From Oscillospiraceae bacterium (GTDB lineage Bacteria > Bacillota > Clostridia > Oscillospirales > UBA929), in contig JAVBPM010000023.1 in the NCBI GenBank assembly GCA_031549605.1, positions 1 through 60,294 on the forward strand: DNA of 60,294 nucleotides, written 5' to 3'. Positions 3,645 through 58,122 of this stretch are shown in pieces (position 1 is the first letter of the stretch; every line of letters begins with the position of its first letter). Below the pieces are notes generated by a model. It worked only from the letters and a program-made list of their open reading frames with translations. It had not been told where the DNA came from and ran no database searches. The translations under genes and the position numbers were made by a program.

Positions 3645-4802
3645 TTGTTTATCGTCATGATGGTCGTGGTGCTGCTTGTGCTCGGCGCCGCGTGCTACTA
3701 CATAGGCCGCCGGCTGCAAGCCTATCTGCGCGCGTGGGGCTTAAGATTTAAGGGGCGTAGCTATTGGTGGCCGTTCGGTTTGTTCTACGCCTTTATGATT
3801 TTTTGCTTTGCCGCGCCGGCCGCGCTGCCGGGCGTCAGTTTGCTGCGCACGGCCGGAGCGCTGTGGCTGGGCGTCTTGCTCTACACGCTGCTGGTCGGCG
3901 CGTTTCTCGAGCTGCTGCGCCTGTGCCGCGTCAGGTTCAAAACACGTCGTGCGGTGCGGACGGTCGGCACGGCGGCCATCGTGCTGGTCGCTTGCGTGGT
4001 CACCTACGGCGCGCTGCACTACCGCGACATCCAGACCAAGCACTACAACGTCACCATTCACAAAGCCGATACCGTGCCGTCGCTGCAGCTGGTGCTGGCC
4101 ACCGACCTGCACCTCGGCTACATCAACGACACAGACAATCTTGAGGATATGGTGGCAAGCATCGCCGCACAGTCGCCCGATTTAGTGCTGCTCGGCGGCG
4201 ACCTCTTTGACGGCAGCTATGCCGCGCTGGCCGACCCCGACCGCGCCGCCTCGCTGCTGGCGTCAGTCAAGCCCAAATACGGCGTCTATGCCGTGCTGGG
4301 CAACCACGACGCGGGGCCAAGCTACTACGACATGGTGGACTTTTGCCGGCGCGCCGGCATCACGCTGCTGCGCGACGAACTGGCCGTTGTCAGCGACCCG
4401 TCGACACAGCAGCCGGTGCTGCAACTGATAGGTCGCCGTGACCGTCGTCCCATCGGCATGACCGGCAGCGAAGCCGACCGCGCGCCGCTGGCCGACCTTG
4501 ACAACGGCGTTGACCCGGCGCTGCCGCTGATTGTGCTTGATCACCAGCCGCACGCCGTCGACGAGGCGGCGGCCATCGGCGCCGACCTCATGCTGTCCGG
4601 CCACACGCATCAGGGTCAGATGTTTCCCATGAACCTCATCACCAAGCTAAGCTACAAAATGGACTATGGCTACGGCAGCTTCGACGGCACCCAGCAAATC
4701 GTAAGCTCAGGCATAGCCGGCTGGGGCCCGCCGCTAAGAATAGGCACCGACTCCGAGGTAGTGGTCATAGACCTGACGTTCGAACAGCAGACGATAGAAT
4801 AA
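3645..4802 (+). CDS. Membrane-anchored metallophosphoesterase
   Basis: N-terminal TM helices; DLHLG, GGDLFD, GNHD, LSGHTHQGQ motifs. Confidence 0.9.
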   Translation: MFIVMMVVVLLVLGAACYYIGRRLQAYLRAWGLRFKGRSYWWPFGLFYAFMIFCFAAPAALPGVSLLRTAGALWLGVLLYTLLVGAFLELLRLCRVRFKTRRAVRTVGTAAIVLVACVVTYGALHYRDIQTKHYNVTIHKADTVPSLQLVLATDLHLGYINDTDNLEDMVASIAAQSPDLVLLGGDLFDGSYAALADPDRAASLLASVKPKYGVYAVLGNHDAGPSYYDMVDFCRRAGITLLRDELAVVSDPSTQQPVLQLIGRRDRRPIGMTGSEADRAPLADLDNGVDPALPLIVLDHQPHAVDEAAAIGADLMLSGHTHQGQMFPMNLITKLSYKMDYGYGSFDGTQQIVSSGIAGWGPPLRIGTDSEVVVIDLTFEQQTIE

Positions 4803-4830
4803 ACCAAGGGCGCCCAAACGGGCGCCCTTG

Positions 4831-5081
4831 CTGCGTGTCAAAAAACTTGTTTTCTGGCACGCAGACAGACTGACAAAGAAGTGCGCAAACAAAAAAACAC
4901 TGTCCGTCGGCGCACGATGGTACGCTAGGGCAGCGTTTCTGTAGCAAGTAAAACCATTGCGGCGCAGCGACTTTGTCGATGCGCCGCAAATCGTCTGTCG
5001 AGAATCAAGACATAGCTTTGCGTCGCCGTATGCTCTTTTTTCTGACACTGGTTTTACGGTGCGCGCTTTTTTGACAGTCTG
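4831..5081. mobile_element. 251-bp MITE-like element, family A copy 1
   Basis: Similar to 11979-12229 and 21934-22184; terminal IR TGTCAAAAAA/TTTTTTGACA; flanked by near-identical hairpins at 4807-4830 and 5082-5103. Confidence 0.85.
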
Positions 5082-5109
5082 AGGGCGTCCAAACGGGCGC
5101 CGTGCAGTA

Positions 5110-5928
5110 TTACAAATCCCGCTTGCGGAACAGCAGCCAGGCGCATAGGCCGGCCAGTGCGATGTAGCACACTGTCCACAGCGGCATATGGTCGGGCATG
5201 CTGTTGACGGCCTGGCCGCTGAGGCCGCTCATAAAGTCAACGTCGGACAGCTGCTGGCTGGCCAGCGAGCCGATGGCCGAAAACGGCGACAGGTGGATGA
5301 TGGCGTAGCCGACCTTGTACACGCCCTCGCTGAGCGGTCGCAGCGCCACCATTGAGCTGCCCAAGTCGCCGATAAAGTACATCGACAGCAGAATGATGTT
5401 GGTTGCCGCGGTGCGCAGCCGCGCGCCCAGCGCCTGTGCCAGCGCCACAAGCGCCGTTTGCATCAGCGCCAGATACAGCCATGCGGTGAGTATGTCGCTT
5501 AACGCTACGCCGCCCGCCGACGTGATGCCCAGCAGTGCGCAGAGCAGCATCAGCGCGCCAAAGGAAGCGGCCGAAAAACAGAGGCTGACCGTCAGCGCGC
5601 CGGCCAGTCGACCGGCCAGATACTGTAGCCGGGTGACCGGCCGCGACAGCACGCCGTGCAGCAGTCCCGTTTCGCAGTCGTTGGCAATGCTGCTCGAGCC
5701 GGTCAAAATGGCGGTCAGCGTCGAGAACATGACCAGAAAAGAAAAGCCAATGAGCAAAAAACCAAGCCCCAGCTCTTCGCTGCGTCCAAAGTTCGTTGAA
5801 ATGGCGTTTTTGGCCACCACATAGCCCAGCGTCCACAGCACGAGGAAAATCAGCGTGATGATGCTGAGCACAAGCAGCGTTTTCTTGCGCCGCGCCTCCA
5901 GCACGGTTACTCTCCAGATGGCGGTCAT
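5110..5928 (-). CDS. ABC-2 type transporter permease
   Basis: Multi-TM; ETGLLHGVLSRPVTRLQYLAGRL motif; overlaps the ATPase gene. Confidence 0.85.
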   Translation of the reverse strand: MTAIWRVTVLEARRKKTLLVLSIITLIFLVLWTLGYVVAKNAISTNFGRSEELGLGFLLIGFSFLVMFSTLTAILTGSSSIANDCETGLLHGVLSRPVTRLQYLAGRLAGALTVSLCFSAASFGALMLLCALLGITSAGGVALSDILTAWLYLALMQTALVALAQALGARLRTAATNIILLSMYFIGDLGSSMVALRPLSEGVYKVGYAIIHLSPFSAIGSLASQQLSDVDFMSGLSGQAVNSMPDHMPLWTVCYIALAGLCAWLLFRKRDL

Positions 5929-6848
5929 GCCGACGCACCTCCCTGTTCGGAGGTGTGTTCAATCAGGTCGATAAACATCTCCTCCAGCTCCAGTCGCTTG
6001 CCGGCCACGCCATAGATGTCAACCTGCTGATTGACCAGCAGGCGCACGACCTCGGCCGCCGCTTGCTCGTCCTTGAGCGTCAGCGTCAGCGTGTCGCCCT
6101 CGCGTGCCGGCTGCGTGCCCAGGTGCGTCGTCAGTGCCGCCATCGCGGCGTCGGATAGTCCGCCGGTCTTGATGGTAAAGTAGTTGGTCTGACCCAGCGC
6201 CTCGTCGGTCGAGCCGGAAAACACAATGCGTCCCTTGTTGATAATGGTCAGGTGGTCGCACACGGTCTCAACCTCGGCCAGCAGGTGGCTGTTGAGAAAA
6301 ATCGTGACGCCGTGCTTCTTCAGCCCGGCCATCAGCTCGCGCATATCCTTGCGGCCGATGGGGTCAAGCGCCGACGACGGCTCGTCTAAGAGCAGCAGCT
6401 GCGGGTTGCACAGCATGGCGCACGCCAAGCCAATGCGCTGCTGCATACCTTTGGAATAGGTGCCCACCTTCTGCTTTTCGGCACCCTTTAGCCCGACGAG
6501 GTTAAGCGCCCAGTCGTTGCGGTCGCGGCTCTGCGGCAGTCGGTACAGCGCCGTGTGGTAGTTGAGCAGCTCGTCGCCGGTCATCCACGGTTGGAATTGA
6601 AAGAGTTCGGGCAGATAGCCCATGCGCTGCCGCGCCGCCGTGTGGCCGAGTTGGTGACCCAGCACAGTCGCTGTGCCCGAAGTCGGGCGAATGAGACCGG
6701 TCAGCATCTTGATGGTGGTGCTTTTGCCCGCGCCGTTGGGGCCGAGAAAGCCGTAGCAGCCGCCCTCGTTGACCGAAAAACTGAGGTTGTCAACGACCAG
6801 CTTGCTGCCAAACCGCTTGGTTAACCCGTGCGTTTCGATGACAGTCAT
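5925..6848 (-). CDS. ABC transporter ATP-binding protein
   Basis: Walker A GPNGAGKST, signature YSKGMQQR, Walker B LLLLDEP. Confidence 0.95.
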   Translation of the reverse strand: MTVIETHGLTKRFGSKLVVDNLSFSVNEGGCYGFLGPNGAGKSTTIKMLTGLIRPTSGTATVLGHQLGHTAARQRMGYLPELFQFQPWMTGDELLNYHTALYRLPQSRDRNDWALNLVGLKGAEKQKVGTYSKGMQQRIGLACAMLCNPQLLLLDEPSSALDPIGRKDMRELMAGLKKHGVTIFLNSHLLAEVETVCDHLTIINKGRIVFSGSTDEALGQTNYFTIKTGGLSDAAMAALTTHLGTQPAREGDTLTLTLKDEQAAAEVVRLLVNQQVDIYGVAGKRLELEEMFIDLIEHTSEQGGASA

Positions 6849-6910
6849 GCGTATTCTCCTTGTGATTGTAAAATTTTAACAAAACATTTGCGCGCAAACG
6901 GAAAAAAGCC

Positions 6911-6939
6911 TTGCTATTGTACGGAAAATACTGTATACT
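6911..6939 (+). promoter_or_regulatory. Putative sigma-A promoter of carD
   Basis: TTGCTA-17 nt-TATACT. Confidence 0.5.
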
Positions 6940-6987
6940 AAACTAGATGGCATGTCAATAAACTTTATGATGGGAGGGTTCGGCATC

Positions 6988-7464
6988 ATGTTTTCGATCG
7001 GCGATAAGATTGTTCACCCGCTGCACGGCGCTGGTGTCGTGTCCGACATCATTGACCAGCGCATCAACGGCATCAACCGTCAGTACTACGTGCTGCATAT
7101 CCCTGTCGGCGATATGAGCGTTATGATACCCACCCACAACACCGCTGAAATCGGCGTGCGCGCCGTGCTGTCGGCCGACGACGCCGAGGTGCTGATGGAA
7201 AGCCTGACCGACATCGACGTCGACATGACCAGCAACTGGAACCGACGCTACCGCGAGAATATGCTGCGCATCAAGAGCGGCGATTTGCGCGAGGTGTCGA
7301 AGGTCGTCAAGGGCCTGATGGCGCGCGAGGCGCAGACCGGCCTGTCAACCGGCGAGCGCAAGATGCTCAGCTCGGCCAAAAACATTCTCATCAGCGAGCT
7401 GGTCTTGGCGCAAAGCGCCGAGTACAGCGTCGTCGAGGAGCGCATTACCCGCGCGCTGGCGTAA
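6988..7464 (+). CDS. carD: CarD family transcriptional regulator
   Basis: MFSIGDKIVHPLHGAG...NWNRRYRENMLRIKSGDL...LSTGERKML. Confidence 0.92.
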   Translation: MFSIGDKIVHPLHGAGVVSDIIDQRINGINRQYYVLHIPVGDMSVMIPTHNTAEIGVRAVLSADDAEVLMESLTDIDVDMTSNWNRRYRENMLRIKSGDLREVSKVVKGLMAREAQTGLSTGERKMLSSAKNILISELVLAQSAEYSVVEERITRALA

Positions 7465-7480
7465 CGATAACAGTAAACCC

Positions 7481-7510
7481 ATCGCCGCATTGTCAATGCG
7501 GCGATTTTTT
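7481..7510 (+). terminator. Intrinsic terminator after carD
   Basis: ATCGCCGCATTG-T-CAATGCGGCGAT followed by T run. Confidence 0.8.
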
Positions 7511-7534
7511 ATACCCTTTTGCCGCGTAAACGGC

Positions 7535-7563
7535 TTGCCGACTTCCGCGTGCGGAAGTATAAT
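7535..7563 (+). promoter_or_regulatory. Promoter with palindromic operator filling the spacer
   Basis: TTGCCG-17 nt-TATAAT; ACTTCCGC-GT-GCGGAAGT at 7541-7558. Confidence 0.6.
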
Positions 7564-7585
7564 AAGCGTACAGGTGGTGGGCGTT

Positions 7586-8761
7586 ATGAAGCTGTCTGAT
7601 TACATCACCGTCAAAGCGGCTGCGGCACACTGGGGCGTTAGCACGCGCTATGTAACGCAGTGCCTTGCCGCCGGACGGGTGCCCGGCGCGGTCAAGCGGG
7701 GGCGGCAGTGGCTGCTGCCGCGCGACGCGCGCAAGCCAAGCGGCCATGCAATGCCGGCCAGCGCGCTGGCACAACAGCTGCGCGACCTTTCCGACCTCAC
7801 CTCGCAGCCCATGCCGCGCGACAACCCCGACGCCATACTCGGCACGCTGACCGAGCCGCGTGTGCGACTGCAATATGAGGGCGAGCTGGCCTATCTGCGC
7901 GGCGACTTTGAGCGGGTGGTGGCCTGCTTTGCCGCGCTGGAACACGACGACGCGGCCAAGCTCCGGGCCTGTCCGCTGACCATTGCCGCTGCCATCAGCA
8001 CCGGCAACTACACGCTCTATACGACGATTGAGGCGTATCTCAAAACGCTGATTGCCGCGCCAAACGACCCCGTTGTATCCGCCGTGGCCGAGCTGGCGCT
8101 CAACACCGCCTACGTCAGCGCCATCGCGCCCAACATGGTGTCACCCTGGCTGAAGGAGGGCGACTTTGCGGCGCTGCCACCGCCCGCGTGGCCCGACGCC
8201 GCCTACAAGCGCGCCAAGTACTTTCAGGGGCTGGGGCGCTACGAGTCGATGCTGGCCGTGGCGCAGACGGCGCTGGCCTTTTGCACGACAGGGCAGGGGA
8301 TTTTGTACCCCGAATTGTATCTGCGCGTCACGTGCGCGGCTGCCTGCTGCGGGCTGCAACGCGAGACGCAGGCCGAGCAGTACCTGTCGGACGCATTGGC
8401 CATCGCACTGCCGCACGGCTTTGTCACGCCCTTTGCCGAATCGGCGGTCGCCTTTGGCGGCCTGCTGGAGCGGTGCTTAGAGCGGCAGTACCCCGACCAG
8501 CTGGACGTGGTGGCGCGTAACTGGCGGCACACCGTCGCCAACTGGATGCGCTTTCACAACCGGTTTACCAAGGACAACATCACGTCTATTTTGTCGCTGC
8601 GCCAGTATGAGATTGCCTCGCTGGCGGCCCACCACGTGCCGCGCGCCGAAATCGCGCGCCGGTTTCACATCTCGGAGGGCCGTCTCAACAACATCTTGCA
8701 GGAAATCTACGCCAAGCTGCTGGTGTCCGGCCGCGACGAGCTGCTGCAGTTTATACTATAA
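7586..8761 (+). CDS. Transcriptional regulator with N-terminal excisionase-like HTH, helical middle region and C-terminal LuxR-like HTH
   Basis: YITVKAAAAHWGVSTRYV...GRVPGAVKRGRQWLLPRDARKP; C-terminal LSLRQYEIASLAA...EIARRFHISEG...IYAKLLVSGRDEL. Confidence 0.8.
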   Translation: MKLSDYITVKAAAAHWGVSTRYVTQCLAAGRVPGAVKRGRQWLLPRDARKPSGHAMPASALAQQLRDLSDLTSQPMPRDNPDAILGTLTEPRVRLQYEGELAYLRGDFERVVACFAALEHDDAAKLRACPLTIAAAISTGNYTLYTTIEAYLKTLIAAPNDPVVSAVAELALNTAYVSAIAPNMVSPWLKEGDFAALPPPAWPDAAYKRAKYFQGLGRYESMLAVAQTALAFCTTGQGILYPELYLRVTCAAACCGLQRETQAEQYLSDALAIALPHGFVTPFAESAVAFGGLLERCLERQYPDQLDVVARNWRHTVANWMRFHNRFTKDNITSILSLRQYEIASLAAHHVPRAEIARRFHISEGRLNNILQEIYAKLLVSGRDELLQFIL

Positions 8762-8772
8762 CGGCGCAAAAC

Positions 8773-8798
8773 GTGTATTTTCTCGACTGAAAATACAC
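8773..8798. promoter_or_regulatory. Perfect 10-bp inverted repeat, candidate operator
   Basis: GTGTATTTTC-TCGACT-GAAAATACAC; AT-rich, no U tail. Confidence 0.55.
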
Positions 8799-8885
8799 TC
8801 CCAAAGCGCCGAAAAAACCTTCATAATAACAATGTAGCAGTTGTTATTGTGGAGGTTTTTCTGGAGTTAAGGAGGGAATTAGACC

Positions 8886-18400: not shown

Positions 18401-19102
18401 AGCGCCACCGCGCTGGAGCGCAAGGCCGACCGCACGCTGGTCAAGTTCGCCGTGCGCGACAGCGGCATCGGCATTGACGAGGATAAAATCGACGAAATCT
18501 TCCGCCCCTTTGAGCAGGGCGACGGCAGCATTACGCGCCGGTTTGGGGGCACGGGTCTGGGGCTGGCCATATCCGACACCATCGTGCGCCTGTTCGGCGG
18601 CAAGATTGCCGTCGACAGCGAGGTCGGCGCCGGCAGCCTGTTCAGCTTCAGCATCTGGCTCAAGCACGACAACGACAGCCAGCCCGACGAGGAGACGGCC
18701 GTCGACATCACCGGCCGCTTTGTCGGCAAGCACATCCTGCTGGTCGACGACGTCGACATCAACCGCATGATTGTTACCTCCATGCTCGAGGAATCGGGCG
18801 CAACCATTGAGGAGGCCGACGACGGCAAAGCCGCTGTCGAGGCCTTTACCGCCTCGCCGGTCGGCCACTATGACTTGATTTTAATGGATGTGCTGATGCC
18901 CCACATGGATGGCCACGAGGCGTCGCGCGTCATCCGCGACCTCGACCGACCCGACGCTGAGACCGTGCCCATCGTCGCGCTGACGGCCAACGCCTTCAAG
19001 GAAGACATCGACAAGGCGATTGAAAACGGCATGAACGGCCACATCGCCAAGCCGGTCGTGATGGAAAAGCTGGCCGGCACGCTGGCGAGGTTTATCAAGT
19101 GA
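15413..19102 (+). CDS. Hybrid sensor histidine kinase (large extracytoplasmic domain, HAMP, 2 PAS, HisKA, HATPase, REC)
   Basis: FLARMSHEIRTPMNAI, QVLINLLGNAVKFT, DSGIGI, GGTGLGL, LILMDVLMP, IAKP. Confidence 0.93.
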   Translation: MANKSNAQRRRKRKKHGLRAKLVSIFLAVKVIPLILLAFIAWRQFVLLGDAVRAISVNDSKAALNAGAIENIERMTTDGAKIVADFLYARDDDLLMLAGLEPTEQNYKTFIQSHTGTLIQPGEWLLNDDETAWVAAPSHTATAYVGNSTNAENNINDGFHYRQPDVYQTKKVALYDEITFVDLNGVEQIKIVADNSTKQNYPMTAQKRDVSKRENTYVKAETYFDEVKNLKPGQIYVSDVIGAYVGSNYIGMYAPAALNAAEQKLGYDIDYQPEKQAYSGRENPVGQRFEGIVRWATPVTDAGGAVIGYVTFALNHDHIIELVDHLTPMAERYTAVSSAFEGNYAFIWDYKCRNIVHPRHHSIVGYDPQTGEPAVPWLESSIYEGWQASGTAKWTDYIAQASVPTFDNQSRQNKPAGALTKAGQVGLDGRYLNQAPQCTGWMDLTKDGGSGSFYILWSGINKLTTAAAIPYYTGHYAPSADNEFSRRGFGFVTIGAGLEDFTKPATETADRIDVALAEHQTDTFLQLLLTTFIIIVLVVIIAIWMASLLTNNITGMVKGITRFRSGERQFRFKSSATDEFGELADSFDEMAESVANSVSNPLVITDMDCNIVYANEPCLHMIGKTIDEVVGQPYEKFCVYDTGSGNDPIWALKAGREADITHIEATDTYVRGEANYQFDTDGEKVGYIIVTSDITEMVREKNLIQRQNLLLDQIFSSSPDLIWYQDVQGRYLAVNPRFAAVPGLPVEHYIGKTIEEVLPPHLVEQAKRYDRQTISERRPVYAEETVTFADGHVESLDTVRTPVFDADGTLVGLLGFARNVTARVDIEKELRDTQIRLEKAVYDANKANEHKGEFLARMSHEIRTPMNAIIGISNIVLRRLQDSDDEQSVEVRGHVQQIATSSQHLLGLLNDILDISKIEAGKIELCEERFDLGKLLLAVSGIITPRCDEKNINFTTQFDSFDPTSFLSDPLRLRQVLINLLGNAVKFTPETGSITFSATALERKADRTLVKFAVRDSGIGIDEDKIDEIFRPFEQGDGSITRRFGGTGLGLAISDTIVRLFGGKIAVDSEVGAGSLFSFSIWLKHDNDSQPDEETAVDITGRFVGKHILLVDDVDINRMIVTSMLEESGATIEEADDGKAAVEAFTASPVGHYDLILMDVLMPHMDGHEASRVIRDLDRPDAETVPIVALTANAFKEDIDKAIENGMNGHIAKPVVMEKLAGTLARFIK

Positions 19103-19566
19103 GGCTGAAGCCGGTTGTATGCTGGGCGCTGCTGGCGCTGCTACTGCTCTGCGGCTGCGGTATGCTCGAAGAATTGCAGGCGACCCAGGCGCCCGCGACG
19201 CTGTCGGGTGCTGTCGCGGTTGAGGCCGACGGCACCTACACCGACCGCGACCACGTCGCGCTCTATATCCACACCTACCACAAGCTGCCGTCCAACTACC
19301 TCACCAAAAAAGAGGCCGAGCAGCGCGGCTGGAACAGCAGCCACAGCACCATGGCCGAGGCGCTGCCCGGCTACAGCATCGGCGGCGACCACTTTGGCAA
19401 CCACGAGCAGCTGCTGCCGACCATCAAGGGACGCCGCTACTTCGAGTGCGACATCGACTACAAGAGCGGCCACCGCAACGCCAAGCGCATCATCTACTCC
19501 GACGACGGCCTGATTTATTACACCGACGACCACTATAAAACCTTTACCGAGATTACCTTTGACTGA
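19099..19566 (+). CDS. Lipoprotein ribonuclease, barnase (N1/T1) family
   Basis: Lipobox LCGC; YHKLPSNYLTKKEA, SIGGDHFGN, YFECDIDY, RNAKRIIYSDDGLIYYTDDHYKTF. Confidence 0.9.
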   Translation: MRLKPVVCWALLALLLLCGCGMLEELQATQAPATLSGAVAVEADGTYTDRDHVALYIHTYHKLPSNYLTKKEAEQRGWNSSHSTMAEALPGYSIGGDHFGNHEQLLPTIKGRRYFECDIDYKSGHRNAKRIIYSDDGLIYYTDDHYKTFTEITFD

Positions 19567-19576
19567 GGTGAGCGTC

Positions 19577-19846
19577 TTGAAACACCTGACATTGCAGCCC
19601 AAGGGGCTGACCACGCCGGCGCAGCTGCACGGCGAAATCAAGGCGCTTTTTGCCTTTCCCGACAGCTACGGTGCCAACCTCGACGCGCTGTACGACCTGC
19701 TTTGTCAGCCGTGCGACGCCGTCTGCCTGACGTTGCCGCGCGCACTGCCGCGCCGGCGCAAGCTGAGTCGCTACTACGACCGCGTAGTCGACATATTGCA
19801 AGCCGCCGCCGAGCAAAACCCGTCGCTTCAGCTGTCTTGGCGGTAG
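19577..19846 (+). CDS. Barstar family ribonuclease inhibitor
   Basis: FAFPDSYGANLDALYDLL; GAGGTG RBS then TTG. Confidence 0.85.
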   Translation: MKHLTLQPKGLTTPAQLHGEIKALFAFPDSYGANLDALYDLLCQPCDAVCLTLPRALPRRRKLSRYYDRVVDILQAAAEQNPSLQLSWR

Positions 19847-19874
19847 CTGACGACCATCGACAGGAGGAAAGGGT

Positions 19875-20900
19875 ATGTATTGTACACAGTGCGGAGCGCA
19901 GGTTCCCGAGACAGCCGCCTTTTGCCGCCAGTGCGGCGCGCCCTCACCGGGCTCAGTGCCGGCCGCGCCGGTGCCGCCGGCCATGCCAATGATGCCGCCA
20001 CCGCCGCCGCCAAAGTCAAAGCTGCCGCTTTGGATTGCGCTGGGCGTGCTGATTGTGGCCGCCGGCATAGCCGCCGTGTTGCTGCTGACCGGTGACAAGT
20101 CAGACGGCAAAGCAACGCCGACCCCACGCGCCACGCCGACCCAAACCGCCGACCCGACGCCGACGCAAGCGCCGGATGGCTTTGAGGCCGAGTCGTTCAC
20201 CGCCTATGGCAACAGCTATTCGATTACCGGCTACGCGTTCTCACACGGCGATAACGGAAAGACGATCATTACGATGACCGGCACCGACTACAGCATCATG
20301 CCCTTCCGCGACGGCAGCCTGCACGTTCCGGTCTGGGCCGAGTTCACCGCGGGCGGCGAGACCTTCCGCGCCGTCGCGGCCACCACCAGCGCCACCAGCG
20401 TGATTTACGAGTTTGAGGCAACCGCCACGCCCGAGACCATCATCTTCATCAACAGCGAGACCGAAGAGGTGATTTCCACCGTGTACATTGGCGTGGACGC
20501 GGGTACCGCCACCGAACCGCCGGCTACCGAAGCACCGGCCACCGAACCGCCTGCTACTGAACCGCCCGCCGCCACCGACCAAATTGCCCCCGACCTGTAC
20601 AAACCGTTTGTCGGCGAGTGGCTGGGCAGGGCCGACGACATCGTGCTGACCTTCAACGTCAAAGACGACGGCACCGGCGTCTATCATTTCCAGCAGGGCG
20701 GCTATGAAGAAGGCTATCCCTTTGCGCTCAAGGCCGACACCAAGACCTTCAGCGTCACCATCCCCGCCGACAACCGGCTGGGCATCAAAACCATCACGGG
20801 CAGCTACGAGCTGGCCGACGACACGCTGACGCTGCGCGTCAAAACCACCTTCGCCGACGGCCGGACGTTCAGCTACACCGTGCCCTGTCACAAGATTTAG
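19875..20900 (+). CDS. Zinc-ribbon membrane protein with Pro/Thr-rich linkers
   Basis: MYCTQCG...FCRQCG, poly-Pro, single TM, ATE(P/A)P repeats. Confidence 0.8.
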   Translation: MYCTQCGAQVPETAAFCRQCGAPSPGSVPAAPVPPAMPMMPPPPPPKSKLPLWIALGVLIVAAGIAAVLLLTGDKSDGKATPTPRATPTQTADPTPTQAPDGFEAESFTAYGNSYSITGYAFSHGDNGKTIITMTGTDYSIMPFRDGSLHVPVWAEFTAGGETFRAVAATTSATSVIYEFEATATPETIIFINSETEEVISTVYIGVDAGTATEPPATEAPATEPPATEPPAATDQIAPDLYKPFVGEWLGRADDIVLTFNVKDDGTGVYHFQQGGYEEGYPFALKADTKTFSVTIPADNRLGIKTITGSYELADDTLTLRVKTTFADGRTFSYTVPCHKI

Positions 20901-20911
20901 ACAAAAACAAA

Positions 20912-20943
20912 CAAGCGGCAAGGGAGTTTTCCCTTGCCGCTTG
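20912..20943. terminator. Bidirectional hairpin, AAGCGGCAAGGG family
   Basis: CAAGCGGCAAGGGA-GTTT-TCCCTTGCCGCTTG between convergent genes. Confidence 0.75.
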
Positions 20944-20962
20944 GCGCTATAGTAATTGATTT

Positions 20963-21298
20963 TTAGAGCAGTGTCATGATTTTGTTGAAGTTGAGCTCTT
21001 TGGTTTTCTTGGAAATGGAGAACCAGTCGATGATGGTCAAAATGCCGCAGACACCACCGGTCAACAGCTTGAGCACACCCATGCCCGTGTCGCCCAGCAT
21101 GAAGCGGTCAACGCCAAAGGAGCCGAGGAAAATGGAAATCAGCAGCAGTGTGGTGGGGTCCTTCAGCTCGATGGTGGAAATCAGACCCATGCGCGACTCG
21201 TCCATCGCCAGCAGTTTCTCTCTCAGGTACAGCGTCTTTTCGGCCGGGAAATACTTGGCGTTTGCGAGCATAAACATGTCTACTTTTTGGACATCCAT
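20963..21298 (-). CDS. TM2 domain protein
   Basis: [49 protein letters not shown]. Confidence 0.88.
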
Positions 21299-21391
21299 TT
21301 TACTACACCCTTTGTTTCATAAATTGTGCGTTGAATAAATATGCAAAGCGATAATATAGCAACATACGACGAAAGTCAAGCGCGTTTTGCA

Positions 21392-21754
21392 CTAATAAAC
21401 GATATTGCCCGAAAGGACGCGAATGATGTAGACGACAAAAATCAGCAGCGCGGCGGCGATTAGAATGGCGTCGCTTGTTTTCTTTTTCATAGTGAATAGC
21501 GGGCGGTGAAAGGCAAACAGCAGCGTCAAAATCATGGGAATGGTCATCGGATTGTAGTGCAGCGAGGCGCTGAAGTCCAATTGAAGCAGCGCGACAAACG
21601 ACCGCGTCATGCCGCAGGTCGGCGATGGAACATGAAAAATCGCCTTGAAAGGGCAGGGGACGTCAACCGTCGAAGCGATTAGTAAATAAATCAATGCGAC
21701 AAGCGCCAGCAAGGCGTCCTGCCGCAGTATTTGTTTGGCGCTCTTGCCGGCCAT
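21392..21754 (-). CDS. DUF2752-like membrane protein
   Basis: CPFKAIFHVPSPTCGMTRSFVALLQLDFSASLHYNP. Confidence 0.8.
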   Translation of the reverse strand: MAGKSAKQILRQDALLALVALIYLLIASTVDVPCPFKAIFHVPSPTCGMTRSFVALLQLDFSASLHYNPMTIPMILTLLFAFHRPLFTMKKKTSDAILIAAALLIFVVYIIRVLSGNIVY

Positions 21755-21933
21755 GGGCACACCCGCCTTATCGTAAAGAATGGTTGCCGCTAGCCTAGCA
21801 GCGCGATGGCCTAATTGTACAACAGGTTGACCCAAATTGATAGTGCAAACTGTAATTTGAGAGCAGTGCAGCGCCGCACGTGTAAGTGCCGTGCGACGCA
21901 GCGGGCAAAACAAAAGACAGGCATGGCCTGTCT

Positions 21934-22184
21934 CAGCGTGTTAAAAAACTTGTTTTTTGGCACGCTGCCAGACTGACAAAGAGGTGCGCAGGCAAAGAAA
22001 CGCTGTCCGTCGGCGTACGATGGTACGCTAGGACAGCGTTTCTGCAGCAAGTATAACCAATTGTGGCGCAGCGACCTTGTCGATGCGCCACAAACCATTA
22101 GAGGCAAATCAAAACGTAGCCCTGCGTCGTCATTTCTCTTTTTTCTGACACTGGTTTTACGGTGCGCGCTTTTTTGACAGTCTG
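21934..22184. mobile_element. 251-bp MITE-like element, family A copy 3
   Basis: CAG...CTG ends; perfect 19-bp flanking direct repeat AGACAGGCATGGCCTGTCT at 21915-21933 and 22185-22203. Confidence 0.9.
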
Positions 22185-22204
22185 AGACAGGCATGGCCTG
22201 TCTT

Positions 22205-22378
22205 TTACGCGTCTGGTTGCGGCATATGATCGACGGCGTAGTCGATGCACTGATTGATAAAGGCGCTGCGGCTCAGGTTGTGTTGCTCAGCCAGCTTGTC
22301 GATTTGAGCCAGCTTTGATGTTTCAATGCGAACCGTAATCGGCTCACTTTTGAAAGGCTTCGGCATAAAATTAGTCAA
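22205..22378 (-). CDS. Small ribbon-helix-helix (CopG-like) DNA-binding protein, 57 aa (absent from ORF track)
   Basis: TTG start 7 nt after GAGGTG; MTNFMPKPFKSEPITVRIETSKLAQIDKLAEQHNLSRSAFINQCIDYAVDHMPQPDA. Confidence 0.8.
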   Translation of the reverse strand: MTNFMPKPFKSEPITVRIETSKLAQIDKLAEQHNLSRSAFINQCIDYAVDHMPQPDA

Positions 22379-25220: not shown

Positions 25221-27275
25221 ATGACACGCTTCACCGCTTTGACACTGTCCGCCGTCCTGCTGCTGGCGCTATGCGCCTGTGGCGGAACGCCGGCGCCCAG
25301 CACCACGCCCACCACAACCGCGACCGCTTTGCCCACTGCCACAGCGCCCGTTGCGTCGGAGGAGTCGACCATCGCGCAGGCCTACTACGGCGTGGTGACC
25401 GACCTGCTGACCCAGTACGGCGAGCCGCAGCTGACCGACGTTGACGAAAACGACAACGCCGCGCTGTTCGGGCTGTGCTATGTGCGGGTGCGCGACTTTG
25501 ACTATGACGGCACACCCGAGCTGCACGTCTGCTACGCCGAAAAAGCGGCGCTTGGCGAGTACCGGCAGGCCGTCTACACTTTCCGCGACGGGCAGCTTGT
25601 CGCCGCGCTGCCCGACGAGCCGATGGTCTACTACGCCGAATTTCCCGTGCTAAGCCTGATGGTCAAGCCGGGCGAGCAGGTCTATCTTGACGAAAGCTAT
25701 GAGTCGCTGTACATATTCAGAGCCATTCGCGACGGCAAAACAACCACGGCGCTGGACGCCGAGTTTAGTGGCGCAGAATACGAGGGCAAGATAGACGGCA
25801 AGACGGTCACCGGCGCCGAGGCCGAAAGCGTGATTGACACGTTTATCGAGAATAGCGAGGACATTCGCGTTTGGTTTCAAGACGAGCAGAAGCTCCAGCA
25901 GTCGGTGATCGACGAGACCAAGGCGGTGATAGCGCTGCTGAAAAACGGCAGCCTCAAGGCACGACTGCCCGCCGCCGAGCCAATTGCCAACCCGACAACC
26001 GAGCAAGCCGCCGCACTGGCGTACTACGGCGTGCTTTGTGACTTGTTTGACGAGTACGGCGCGGCGCGAATTACCTACAGCGGTCACTACCGAAGCGGCT
26101 TTACCGCTTTGTCAGGCATCGGCTACGTGCGGCTGCTTGACTTTGAATACGACGGCATGCCCGAGCTGTACATCGGGTTTGGCGACGACGTCAACCCCTT
26201 CCACCGCCAGCAGGTCATCTACAGCTACATTGACGGCGCGCTGGTGCAGTCGCTGCCCGCTTGCGACGTCGGCATTGTCGGCGCCGAGGACATTCCCTAT
26301 TCGGAATTTGTCTTTAAGCCTAGCACGCGCGGCTACTTTGTCGACGGCGCGTCCGATGAGCAGATATTCCATACCATCAAGAACGGCAAGGTCGTTACCG
26401 AGAAAAGCATCTACATTGACACTGTCGGCAGCCAGCCGCCCACCATTGACGGCCAGTCGGTGACCGAGGCCGACGCCAACGCGGCGCTGGCAGCCTACAC
26501 CGATGGCGCCGAGGTAACGCACATCTTCTACATGGGCGATGAAAGCACCATGCAGCCACTGATTGACCAAACCAACGCCGTTATCGCGGCGCTGCAAAGC
26601 GGCAGCCTGAAAGCACCGCCCGCACCCAAGCCCGCGCCCACGCCGACACCCGCCACAACAGAGCAGGCCGTGGCCGCCGCCTACTACAACGTGGTGGCCG
26701 ACCTGATTGCCCGGCACGGCGAGGGCAATATGGTGCTGGCGGAGGACAGCCAAAGCGGCTTTGGCCATTTTTCGGGCGTAAGCTACGTTCGGCTGCTTGA
26801 CTTTGAATACGACGGCATGCCCGAGCTGTTCGTCGTTTTCAACGATGCTGAAAACGGGTTTTTGCAAGACAAGGTCATCTATAGCTACATAGACGGCGAG
26901 CTGGTGCAGTCGATGCCCGTCAGCGACGTGCACACAGTCGGCGATGGGTTTCCACGCGCGACGTTAATCTTCAAGGCGGGTCAGCGCGGCTATTTTGTCG
27001 ACGGACACGACGGTGACAGCATCTTCTGCACGCTGAAAAACGGCAAGGTGGTCACCGAAAAGACGGTCTATTGCGATGACATACGCGGCGAGGCCTTTTC
27101 CATTGACGGCCAGTCGGTGACCGAGGCCGAGGCCAACGCTGCCATCTCGGCCTACACCAAGGGCGCCGAGGTGGTGGACATCCACTTTCTGGGCACCGGC
27201 GACGAAGCGATGCAGGCCACGCTGCGGCAGACCAACGATGTCATCGCGCTGCTTAAGAGCGGCAAGCTGAAATAG
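25221..27275 (+). CDS. Lipoprotein with three tandem ~200-aa repeats
   Basis: Lipobox LCAC; three copies of AYY.VV.DL...YVR..DF.YDG.PEL...IDG..VT.A.A...QTN.VIA.L..G.LK. Confidence 0.85.
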   Translation: MTRFTALTLSAVLLLALCACGGTPAPSTTPTTTATALPTATAPVASEESTIAQAYYGVVTDLLTQYGEPQLTDVDENDNAALFGLCYVRVRDFDYDGTPELHVCYAEKAALGEYRQAVYTFRDGQLVAALPDEPMVYYAEFPVLSLMVKPGEQVYLDESYESLYIFRAIRDGKTTTALDAEFSGAEYEGKIDGKTVTGAEAESVIDTFIENSEDIRVWFQDEQKLQQSVIDETKAVIALLKNGSLKARLPAAEPIANPTTEQAAALAYYGVLCDLFDEYGAARITYSGHYRSGFTALSGIGYVRLLDFEYDGMPELYIGFGDDVNPFHRQQVIYSYIDGALVQSLPACDVGIVGAEDIPYSEFVFKPSTRGYFVDGASDEQIFHTIKNGKVVTEKSIYIDTVGSQPPTIDGQSVTEADANAALAAYTDGAEVTHIFYMGDESTMQPLIDQTNAVIAALQSGSLKAPPAPKPAPTPTPATTEQAVAAAYYNVVADLIARHGEGNMVLAEDSQSGFGHFSGVSYVRLLDFEYDGMPELFVVFNDAENGFLQDKVIYSYIDGELVQSMPVSDVHTVGDGFPRATLIFKAGQRGYFVDGHDGDSIFCTLKNGKVVTEKTVYCDDIRGEAFSIDGQSVTEAEANAAISAYTKGAEVVDIHFLGTGDEAMQATLRQTNDVIALLKSGKLK

Positions 27276-46058: not shown

Positions 46059-46784
46059 ATGACGACCGCCGTTGCGCCGCATGACAACGCGGCGCTGCTC
46101 CGACGCGCCCGCGCGGGCGACAAGGCCGCCTGCGAGCAGGTCGTGTTGCAAAACAACGGGCTGATTTGGTCGGTTGTGCGCCGTTTTTTCGGCCGCGGCA
46201 TCGAGGCCGACGACCTCTACCAGCTGGGCTGCGTCGGCTTTCTCAAGGCCGTGGCCGGCTTTGACGACGAGTACGGCACGCAGTTTTCCACCTACGCCGT
46301 GCCCAAAATCAGCGGGGAGATACGCCGCTTTTTGCGCGACGACGGACCGGTCAAGGTCAGCCGCAGTCTGAAAGAGCAGGCGTACGCCGTGCGGCGCGCC
46401 CGCGAGGCGCTGCTCGGCCGGCTGGGCTGCGAGCCAACCGTCAGCCAGCTGGCGGCCGAGTGCGGGCTAACCATTGAGGAGGTCGCCGCCGCCGAGCTGG
46501 CCGCCGAGCCAACACAGTCGCTGCAGCAGGGCAGTGGTCAAAACGAGGACTTCACGCTGGAGCAAGCGCTGGGCGACAGCGGCATAGAGGGTCAGCTGGT
46601 CGAACGGCTGGCGCTGAAGCAGGCGCTGGCCAGTCTACCCGAGCGCGAAAAACAGGTCATCGACCTGCGCTACTTCCACGGCCTGACCCAACAAAAAATA
46701 GCCGACCTGCTGCAAGTGTCACAGGTGCAGGTCAGCCGCATTGAGCGGAAGGGGTTGGAGGCGTTGAGAGCGCAAATGGTCTGA
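46059..46784 (+). CDS. sigF: Sporulation sigma factor F
   Basis: LIWSVVRRF, FSTYAVPKISGEIRRFLRDDGPVKVSRSLKE, SQVQVSRIE; follows spoIIAB. Confidence 0.93.
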   Translation: MTTAVAPHDNAALLRRARAGDKAACEQVVLQNNGLIWSVVRRFFGRGIEADDLYQLGCVGFLKAVAGFDDEYGTQFSTYAVPKISGEIRRFLRDDGPVKVSRSLKEQAYAVRRAREALLGRLGCEPTVSQLAAECGLTIEEVAAAELAAEPTQSLQQGSGQNEDFTLEQALGDSGIEGQLVERLALKQALASLPEREKQVIDLRYFHGLTQQKIADLLQVSQVQVSRIERKGLEALRAQMV

Positions 46785-46959
46785 GCCGCGCGCCACCTTA
46801 CGGATGCGCGAAAGGCGCTTGAGAAAATGCAAACAAACACGGAATAGCCGTCAGCGCACCCGCTGGTGTGCAGACGGCTGTTTCGTGTTTGTGAAGTCAC
46901 TTTACTCAAGCGCCTTTCGCAGCAGCCGTTAGGTGGCGCGCGGCGACAGCCGATAGCAC
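46775..46959 (+). repeat. ~185-nt rod-like hairpin element, family B copy 2
   Basis: Same motifs as copy 1; stems GCCGCGCGCCACC/GGTGGCGCGCGGC and GCGAAAGGCGCTTGAG/CTCAAGCGCCTTTCGC. Confidence 0.85.
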
Positions 46960-47055
46960 GCACCATCACGCCAAAAGGCTTGCAATCTCGCACCCGCATG
47001 GTACACTAGCAAAGCGCGGTCAGTGGCGGCGCAATACGTTTATCGGAGATGTCTC

Positions 47056-56859: not shown

Positions 56860-57044
56860 TGGCTTGAGCCGATTGACCCGTTACGGATGCGGCAACGCGC
56901 CGCGACCATCAACGCAAACAACTCGGAATAGACGCAGGCCACGCTCGCAAGCGAGGACGGCGGCTGTTTTGAGTTATGAAGTCGTTGTGGGCACGGTGTG
57001 ATTGCGGCTGCCGTTAGGGGTCAGGCGGCGAGTGCCGATAGCAC
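56858..57044 (+). repeat. ~187-nt rod-like hairpin element, family B copy 3
   Basis: AATGG...TTACGGATGC...CGGAATAG...CTGTTTTG...GAAGTC...GCCGTTAG...CCGATAGCAC. Confidence 0.85.
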
Positions 57045-57939: not shown

Positions 57940-58122
57940 TGGCTTGAGCCGGTTGAACCGTTACGGATGCGGCAACGCGCCGCGACCATCAACGCAAGTA
58001 ACTCGGAATAGGCGGTGGGCACACCGCGTGTGGCCATCGACTGTTTCGAGTTATGAAGTCGTTGTGGGCGCGGTGTGCTTGCCAGCAGCCGTTAGGGTTC
58101 AGGCGGCGAGTGCCGATCCCCG
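57938..58122 (+). repeat. ~185-nt rod-like hairpin element, family B copy 4
   Basis: Close to copy 3 (shared GTTACGGATGCGGCAACGCGCCGCGACCATCAACGCAA), different apical stem. Confidence 0.85.

What the first reader, a model, noticed from the sequence alone, without database searches (positions are those of the whole stretch)
4805..22203. Three exactly 251-bp MITE-like elements, each duplicating a different terminator hairpin (family A)
Seen: 4831-5081, 11979-12229 and 21934-22184 share internal sequence and imperfect ~15-bp terminal IRs (consensus CAGCGTGTCAAAAAA / TTTTTTGACAGTCTG). Each is flanked by a direct repeat that is itself a palindrome and unique to the locus: AGACAGGCATGGCCTGTCT (19/19), a 32-nt GGGGTGC-AAAC-GCACCCC hairpin (28/32) and AGGGCG(C/T)CCAAACGGGCGCC(C/G)T (20/22). 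Established: some IS1182-family elements insert at the foot of a stem-loop and duplicate the whole structure. Inference: a non-autonomous IS1182-type derivative targeting terminators as safe sites; no transposase is present in the window.
Basis: partly seen in the sequence, partly recalled or inferred. Interest (0 to 1): 0.7.

Follow-up and report, generated by a model that had tools for sequence, protein, structure and literature searches.

The report
Folded mini-transposon that duplicates terminator hairpins
The three 251-base repeats are copies of a gene-less mobile element, present about 50 times in this genome, each sitting between two copies of the local gene-end hairpin; it is likely moved by an IS1182-type transposase that is not found in this assembly, and its relatives across the same bacterial class keep a predicted one-strand fold whose role is untested.

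Summary
Confirmed. The three elements (251 bp, 85-88% alike) belong to about 50 copies genome-wide. All 41 intact single copies are flanked by a locus-specific duplication of a hairpin (19-39 bp where ungapped), centred on its axis; cross-pairing control 0 of 1892. Sites are gene 3' ends: 36 of 48 convergent, none divergent. The ends match IS1182 elements from the same order, 8 of 13 of which carry perfect 18-34-bp whole-hairpin duplications. Homologous elements in two close genomes gave two empty sites with one hairpin. No transposase was found in this assembly. The skew is weak within this genome and absent in another helix, and no abundant RNA was seen. Hairpin targeting by IS1182 members and folded MITEs are both published, and this scan reported this element before in this genome and similar ones in at least 25 genomes. 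Verdict: new variant of a known kind; the conserved fold is the open question.

The parts
4807..4830 (.). Left copy of the duplicated target hairpin of element 1, 4 bp after the stop of the metallophosphoesterase gene (3645-4802, +)
4831..5081 (+). Element copy 1 (251 bp), between convergent genes
5082..5105 (.). Right copy of the target hairpin of element 1 (20/24 to the left copy), next to the stop of the ABC-2 permease gene (5110-5928, -)
11947..11978 (.). Left copy of the 32-bp target hairpin of element 2, after the SLH-domain gene ending at 11933 (+)
11979..12229 (+). Element copy 2 (251 bp), between genes in tandem
12230..12261 (.). Right copy of the target hairpin of element 2 (28/32), followed by a T run
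21915..21933 (.). Left copy of the 19-bp target palindrome of element 3; terminator-like on the minus strand
21934..22184 (+). Element copy 3 (251 bp), behind a small minus-strand gene (22205-22366)
21934..21967 (+). Terminal hairpin H of copy 3: left IR plus its own inverted copy
21969..21990 (+). Inner IR of copy 3, 18/22 to the right end; predicted to pair with it (helix P0)
21996..22043 (+). Stem P1 with the conserved core: five-base GTCGG loop strand (22009-22013), five-pair hairpin with a four-base loop (22014-22027), three-base loop strand (22028-22030)
22051..22162 (+). Long-range helix P3 (22051-22059 with 22152-22160) enclosing hairpin P2 (22061-22093) and a variable region, followed by a conserved unpaired GG (22161-22162)
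22163..22184 (+). Right IR of copy 3; its last 16 bases resemble IS1182 ends
22185..22203 (.). Right copy of the target palindrome of element 3 (19/19)

Best explanation
This is a gene-less miniature transposon (MITE), present about 50 times in the genome between two copies of a gene-end hairpin, that is likely moved in trans by an IS1182-family DDE transposase which would join the two element ends at the two feet of a terminator hairpin, so that repair copies the whole hairpin. Shown: copy number, hairpin duplication at every intact copy, duplication centred on the hairpin axis, gene-end and convergent-gene bias, IS1182-like ends, the same duplication at autonomous IS1182 elements, single hairpins at empty sites of homologues. 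Inferred: the enzyme, action in trans, staggered joining at an extruded hairpin or cruciform, and that the copies here are old (no pair above 96% identity) and probably immobile now. Inferred more weakly: the internal fold is kept because only source elements that fold on one strand keep spreading, while inserted copies decay at random.
For: 53 BLAST loci in the genome; 38 of 44 pass the duplication score, control 0 of 1892; duplication midpoint on the hairpin axis in 24 of 37, within one step in 34 of 37; duplication length follows hairpin span, Spearman 0.69, n=30. Context: 36 of 48 convergent, 12 tandem, 0 divergent, background 161 and 184 of 981; 35 of 130 hairpin-bearing convergent gaps are occupied against 12 of 165 tandem, p=5e-6. 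IS1182 elements of the same order: ends 12-15/16 in 20 of 20 close-clade loci; 8 of 13 with both flanks readable have perfect 18-34-bp hairpin duplications; their left IR is often followed by its own partial inverted copy, like H. Empty sites: L077 filled / L159 single hairpin; L173 filled / L190 single hairpin; L175 and L189 show one hairpin hit twice in opposite orientations. PMC5678879 (passages) models whole stem-loop duplication by joining at the 5' feet of a cruciform.
Against: No transposase was found in this 96.9%-complete assembly with PF05598, PF13751, PF01609, an IS1182 protein or a 16-sequence profile, and 7 of 10 other genomes rich in the element had no NF033551 match; assemblies often lose repeated IS, but the partner is unproven. 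No autonomous element shares more than the 16-base tips, and none of 48 transposase loci holds the internal core. The element's left tip reads CAGCG where the IS ends read CAG(A/C/G/T)(C/T). Five of 13 readable IS1182 elements lack a perfect duplication. No empty site was found for this genome's own copies. The best-studied hairpin-targeting member, IS1272, deletes the hairpin instead (PMC5678879, PMC4923244).
Confidence: 0.8

Rival explanations
1. The element is first of all a structured RNA with a job for the host (for example processing or decay of read-through transcripts between convergent genes), and mobility is secondary.
For: Stem P1: 93.1% of cells paired, 18 of 22 pairs with two-sided changes, 0 of 500 shuffles as high; G-T 54 versus A-C 7 on the plus strand; plus strand folds better in 23 of 25; a three-helix junction with an unpaired GG in 14 of 23 elements. 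MITE transcripts that affect mRNA stability are known (PMC3184786, PMC3733652, passages).
Against: Every intact copy is sealed by a terminator-like hairpin on each side; sites are not conserved between close genomes; single-copy changes in this genome show no G-T excess (15 G-T, 23 A-C); RNA contigs touch the element only at low depth (one study, contigs only); no shared promoter-like site in the three copies; no Rfam match over a gathering score.
Confidence: 0.08
2. The element is moved by a different hairpin-targeting enzyme, such as an IS30-type transposase like that of IS1630, or a Y1 HUH enzyme reading the core hairpin on single-stranded DNA.
For: IS1630 makes 19-26-bp variable duplications (PMC2853133 and PMC3317919, passages; the title of the original paper says it targets and duplicates inverted repeats). 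The core is a short hairpin next to CGTC and GTAG words, which tag REP elements (PMC3733652). The core also occurs in a few elements with other ends (L085, L089, L109).
Against: IS30 and Y1 loci from relatives match the ends no better than background (10-12/16); neither family was found in this genome; no convincing core near Y1 genes; PMC3733652 has no mention of Clostridia or Firmicutes; Y1 enzymes make no target duplication (own knowledge).
Confidence: 0.07
3. Insertion is as in the best explanation, but the covarying stems have no function: inverted repeats repair each other by template switching, which mimics compensatory change.
For: Two-sided changes also occur in terminal hairpin H and P2 among this genome's copies (5 and 7 cells); helix P3 shows no G-T excess (2 G-T, 6 A-C); shared versus single variants differ only weakly between core and variable region (p=0.06); the genomes are related, so counts are not independent.
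Against: Template switching gives no strand preference, yet P1 has 54 G-T against 7 A-C (p=2e-5 against the base-composition expectation); unpaired loop bases stay nearly invariant while the stems turn over (48% arm identity); part of that invariance is built in, since many members were found with the core pattern.
Confidence: 0.3
4. The duplications are assembly artefacts at repeat edges.
For: The genome is a metagenome assembly, and many contigs end inside the element.
Against: The two hairpin copies usually differ by a few bases (15 of 38 are perfect, mean 96%); independent contigs cross the junctions unchanged; the same pattern stands in many other genomes, including an IS1182 copy in a one-contig genome (L053).
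Confidence: 0.01

Closest known systems
IS1272 / TnSha1 (IS1182 family, staphylococci; PMC5678879, PMC4923244, passages read)
   Same: IS1182-family element with 16-bp IRs that picks hairpins, many of them terminators, by shape and not by sequence; repeated hits at one hairpin in both orientations; a variant (IS1272L) carries an extra left IR.
   Different: IS1272 deletes all or part of the hairpin and leaves no duplication; this element duplicates it whole, has no transposase gene and has a conserved internal fold.
Autonomous IS1182 elements of the same bacterial order (L046, L048, L053, L055, L057, L058, L059, L061)
   Same: Ends 12-15/16 alike; perfect 18-34-bp whole-hairpin duplications; left IR often followed by a partial inverted copy.
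   Different: 1.5-1.6 kb with a transposase; no similarity beyond the tips; none carries the internal core.
MITEPye1 of Paracoccus yeei (PMC11578231, passages read)
   Same: Intergenic MITE assigned to IS1182 by IR similarity; predicted to fold into long stem-loops.
   Different: 4-bp duplications, 1-3 chromosomal copies, no hairpin targeting reported.
IS1630 of Mycoplasma fermentans (IS30 family; seen through PMC2853133 and PMC3317919 passages; the original paper was not held)
   Same: Long, variable duplications (16-26 bp) of inverted-repeat targets.
   Different: IS30 enzyme, 27-bp IRs, autonomous; IS30 loci tested here do not share these ends.
bcr1 of the Bacillus cereus group and SPRITE of pneumococcus (PMC3184786, passages read)
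   Same: [quoted passage not shown]
   Different: bcr1 has 5-bp duplications; neither is reported there to duplicate hairpins or to have IS1182 ends.

Membership tests
MITE (non-autonomous IS derivative) | Short, no coding capacity | tested here: met
   247-253 bp; no translated similarity to ten transposase loci
MITE (non-autonomous IS derivative) | Terminal inverted repeats | tested here: met
   12-13/15 outer; inner IR 15-19/22
MITE (non-autonomous IS derivative) | Many dispersed copies with target duplications | tested here: met
   53 loci; 41 of 41 intact single copies duplicated
MITE (non-autonomous IS derivative) | Filled and empty orthologous sites | tested here: met
   Met for homologous elements in G137/G392; no close strain was available for this genome's own copies
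IS1182-family derivative | Ends similar to those of an IS1182 element | tested here: met
   12-15/16 in 20 close-clade loci against 10-12/16 in 16 control loci
IS1182-family derivative | Same target behaviour as those IS1182 elements | tested here: met
   8 of 13 readable elements have perfect whole-hairpin duplications
IS1182-family derivative | A matching transposase in the same genome | tested here: not met
   Not found with five queries in a 96.9%-complete, 88-contig assembly; absence from the cell is not shown
IS1182-family derivative | Internal sequence descended from an IS1182 element | tested here: inconclusive
   No similarity beyond the tips; a 48-bp IR-hairpin-IR mini element beside an IS1182 fragment (L141) shows how hairpin H could arise
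IS1182-family derivative | Mobilisation by an IS1182 transposase in trans | not testable with these tools
   Needs a transposition assay
IS30 / IS1630-type derivative | IS30-like ends or an IS30 transposase nearby | tested here: not met
   (four IS30 loci only)
REP / RAYT element | 20-40-bp tagged palindrome linked to a Y1 transposase, without long IRs | tested here: not met
   250-bp IR-bounded element; no PF01797 match in this genome; no core beside six Y1 loci
Known structured RNA (Rfam 15) | Match over a gathering score | tested here: not met
   the only match over its cut-off was a neighbouring tRNA

The most novel reading that the evidence does not exclude
This is a class-wide family of DDE-type MITEs whose movement depends on a single-stranded fold: one strand (RNA, or DNA unwound at a fork) folds so that both tips sit in double-stranded IR mimics side by side (H and P0), and a conserved three-helix junction with an exchangeable apical module acts as a cis signal. 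The transposase would then read shape in both donor and target, which could give a compact tool for inserting DNA at terminators without breaking genes.
Probability: 0.2. Interest if true: 0.72.

Novelty: new variant of a known kind. Interest (0 to 1): 0.42.

Why it matters
It is a clean natural data set for shape-directed transposition: about 40 insertions whose duplication is centred on, and scales with, the target hairpin, which is the outcome modelled but not shown for IS1272's relatives in PMC5678879. Roughly a quarter of hairpin-bearing convergent gene gaps in this genome carry a copy, so the element has reshaped bidirectional terminators at scale. Named candidate transposases (for example L055, L057, L061) make the mechanism testable. 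If the conserved one-strand fold proves necessary for movement, that would be new for DDE elements; if not, this is a tidy example of a known kind.

Tried and rejected
A short 216-bp subfamily starting at the inner IR: rejected, the shortened copies have ragged left ends and have lost the left hairpin, as deletions would. Stand-alone H or other IR-bounded elements in this genome: none among 34 loose IR matches. Parent element by exact end patterns: viral contigs 1 hit, genome contigs 7 hits, two of them a different hairpin-adjacent repeat in an Oscillospiraceae assembly, metagenomes 0 and 2 hits; none had a transposase at the end. Plasmid and phage collections: no match to a family member. Empty sites for the window's copies: the same-genus genome is too distant (68-71% in genes); laid contigs showed no skipping joint among the rows listed, with many rows cut. 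Orthologues of L110's site in five genomes had one unrelated hairpin and no element, so they do not test duplication. The same-genus genome's IS1182 (L017/L069) has different ends and is not the partner. RNA contigs of one study stop at 4789 and 11946, just before the left hairpins: one study only, not used as evidence. A phylum-wide DNA search with one member found 1 of 301 genomes, so spread outside the class is not shown. A resemblance of the core to the ERIC central hairpin is recalled, not tested. Literature: the searches listed no description of this family (one search returned 0 papers); subscription journals, ISfinder and TnCentral were not searchable, and supplements were not opened.
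Full report
Observation. The window is contig C79 of a 1.95-Mb, 88-contig assembly, 58.5% G+C, 96.9% complete. SLH-domain genes and a spoIIAB/sigF-like cluster point to a spore-forming Bacillota; 'Clostridia' is my inference. BLAST gave 53 loci: 41 intact single copies, 6 with the left end deleted, 3 cut by contig ends (one probably the same locus as another), a tandem dimer counted as 2, and 1 diverged fragment. Pairwise identity has a median of 88% and a maximum of 96%, so the burst is not recent.

Duplications. Of 44 near-full loci, 38 pass an ungapped score of 12 or more (19-39 bp, median 29.5, mean identity 96%, 15 perfect); 0 of 1892 mismatched flank pairs do. Three of the six misses have duplications with indels, two have lost the left end, and one is the dimer, which is flanked by a duplication. 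Each duplicated stretch folds into a hairpin. Its midpoint falls on the hairpin axis in 24 of 37 and within one step in 34 of 37, and its length follows hairpin span (Spearman 0.69 over the 30 sites where my finder called a hairpin). Symmetric, variable-length duplication is what joining at the two feet of a hairpin predicts.

Context. With a simple dicodon gene caller of my own (1781 genes, 87% coding), 36 of 48 loci with both neighbours lie between convergent genes, 12 between tandem genes and none between divergent genes; background is 161 and 184 of 981 gaps. Among gaps with a hairpin, 35 of 130 convergent and 12 of 165 tandem gaps are occupied (p=5e-6). Whether this is targeting (bidirectional terminators are better palindromes) or survival (each gene keeps a terminator) is not resolved.

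Anatomy. The element has four IR-like copies. Positions 1-34 are a palindrome (H); positions 36-57 are a second IR that matches the right end better than the outer one does. Folded as one strand, H and a long helix between the inner IR and the right end lie side by side (z=-9.6 for the plus strand; z=-6.8 for the minus strand). Inside are stem P1 with the core, hairpin P2, a variable region and helix P3.

Partner. No transposase was found in the assembly with PF05598, PF13751, PF01609, an IS1182 protein, a 16-sequence IS1182 profile, IS30 or Y1 models. In 401 genomes of the order, 35 had matches to an IS1182 transposase from the same family (NF033551 over cut-off for the four IS1182 proteins tested). 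The 20 close-clade loci match the element's 16-base ends at 12-15 positions, against 10-12 for 16 IS30, IS5-type and Y1 loci and 10-13 for 4 distant IS1182 loci. Thirteen have both flanks readable: 8 carry perfect 18-34-bp whole-hairpin duplications, 1 a diverged pair, and 4 different hairpin-like flanks. Against a firm assignment: nothing is shared beyond the tips, none of 48 transposase loci holds the core, and 7 of 10 other element-rich assemblies had no NF033551 match.

Empty sites. The element was not found in 40 relatives, including the only same-genus genome, which is too distant to align. Homologous elements allowed the test. G137 and G392 have flanks 93-97% alike. L077 is filled and L159 has the single hairpin; L173 is filled and L190 has the single hairpin; L175 and L189 show the same hairpin hit by different subtypes in opposite orientations. 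A fourth site (L082) fell on contig ends and was unreadable. These are relatives, not this genome's own copies.

A wider family with a conserved fold. Weak DNA matches occurred in 23 of 400 other genomes of the order, and the exact core pattern in 23 of 400 other genomes of the class, often in many copies, with the reversed pattern almost absent. Most loci share the layout: hairpin, H, inner IR, P1 with core, P2, variable region, right end, hairpin copy; three of the pattern hits were chance matches in genes. In a fixed register over 29 members, one per genome or contig, P1 has 398 Watson-Crick, 54 G-T, 7 A-C and 34 other pairs, while arms are only 48% alike between genomes. On 27 of these, 93.1% of cells pair and 18 of 22 pairs change on both sides; 0 of 500 shuffles reach this and slid registers give 36-47%. 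Fourteen of 23 elements examined show a P3 helix of at least six pairs ending at an unpaired GG 24-26 bases from the right end (two had no GG call and several were mis-registered). A 386-394-bp subtype replaces the core hairpin with a branched module. Rfam has no match. Limits: members are related; many were found with the core pattern, so its invariance is partly built in; P3 shows no G-T excess (2 against 6 A-C); within this genome P1 changes are 10 G-T to 13 A-C, and the contrast between shared and single variants is weak (p=0.06). G-T pairs are tolerated in both RNA and single-stranded DNA, so the skew does not say which.

Expression. One DNA-like and two RNA runs of one invertebrate-gut study were offered. 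Summed DNA contig depth rises from about 7-11 in the flanks to 500-900 at the element's ends, in line with many copies; RNA contigs cover it only at low depth. Contigs cannot give strand or level.

Mechanism. Most likely an IS1182-type transposase acting in trans binds the outer tips and joins them at the 5' feet of an extruded terminator hairpin on the two strands; gap repair then copies the hairpin (pathway b in PMC5678879, a model there). I put 0.8 on this. The fold is probably kept among source elements and not among inserted copies; whether it is needed for movement, works as RNA, or is a by-product of repeat repair is open.

Literature seen. Passages: PMC5678879, PMC4923244, PMC12056078, PMC3184786, PMC2853133, PMC3317919, PMC3733652, PMC11578231, PMC3281130 and bioRxiv 10.1101/2025.07.22.666184 (terminator-like sequences are enriched upstream of IS elements). 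Not held: the two Siguier reviews and the IS1630 paper, so the statement that some IS1182 members duplicate a whole stem-loop is recalled, and supported here by my own loci. No supplements were opened; IS tables there could name this family.

Verdict. Real, well explained, and a variant of a known kind. This scan reported the same element from two other pieces of this genome and similar ones in at least 25 genomes. The addition here is the empty-site test, the axis symmetry, the autonomous look-alikes and the class-wide covarying fold. Interest 0.42.

Noticed in passing
window:38408-38595, 46781-46965, and ends near 57004-57044 and 58082-58122: A second repeat family of about 180 bases that folds into one long rod (-119.7 kcal/mol for the first copy); about 13 loci in the genome, 68-84% alike, some head-to-tail (C50, C15, C83); no flanking duplication noticed and no Rfam match.
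   Followed up: partly
G000:C83:9330-9795: Tandem dimer of the element: the first unit's right IR is fused to the second arm of the next unit's H, and one hairpin duplication flanks the pair.
   Followed up: partly
G000:C81:6011, C12:713, C24:61698, C35:17305, C51:9138, C52:14142: Six copies have lost the left hairpin copy and part of H, so the upstream gene now ends at or inside the element; at C81 the join uses a five-base match between the target hairpin and H.
   Followed up: partly
L179, L181, L182, L183, L186: A 386-394-bp subtype in which the core hairpin is replaced by a branched module of about 115 bases with a purine-rich, ribosome-binding-site-like linker; it has spread as its own subfamily in three genomes.
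   Followed up: partly
L085, L089, L109, L148: The same core and P1-like stem occur in elements whose ends differ from the IS1182-like ones, one of them on a viral contig, so the module may move between element types.
   Followed up: no
L141:1845-1892: A 48-bp mini element made only of left IR, hairpin and right IR, beside an IS1182 fragment; a possible model for the origin of H.
   Followed up: no
L188 (G183:C89): Two near-identical elements in direct tandem, separated by and followed by copies of one hairpin: repeated insertion at, or amplification through, the duplicated target.
   Followed up: no
L036:2501 and L040:2501: Another hairpin-adjacent repeat in an Oscillospiraceae assembly sharing 19 terminal bases with this element but with a different interior.
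   Followed up: no
window:38682-45122 and 25221-27275: Five tandem paralogous genes of about 400-490 aa with no Pfam or NCBIfam match in the two tested, and a gene with three internal repeats of about 215 aa.
   Followed up: no
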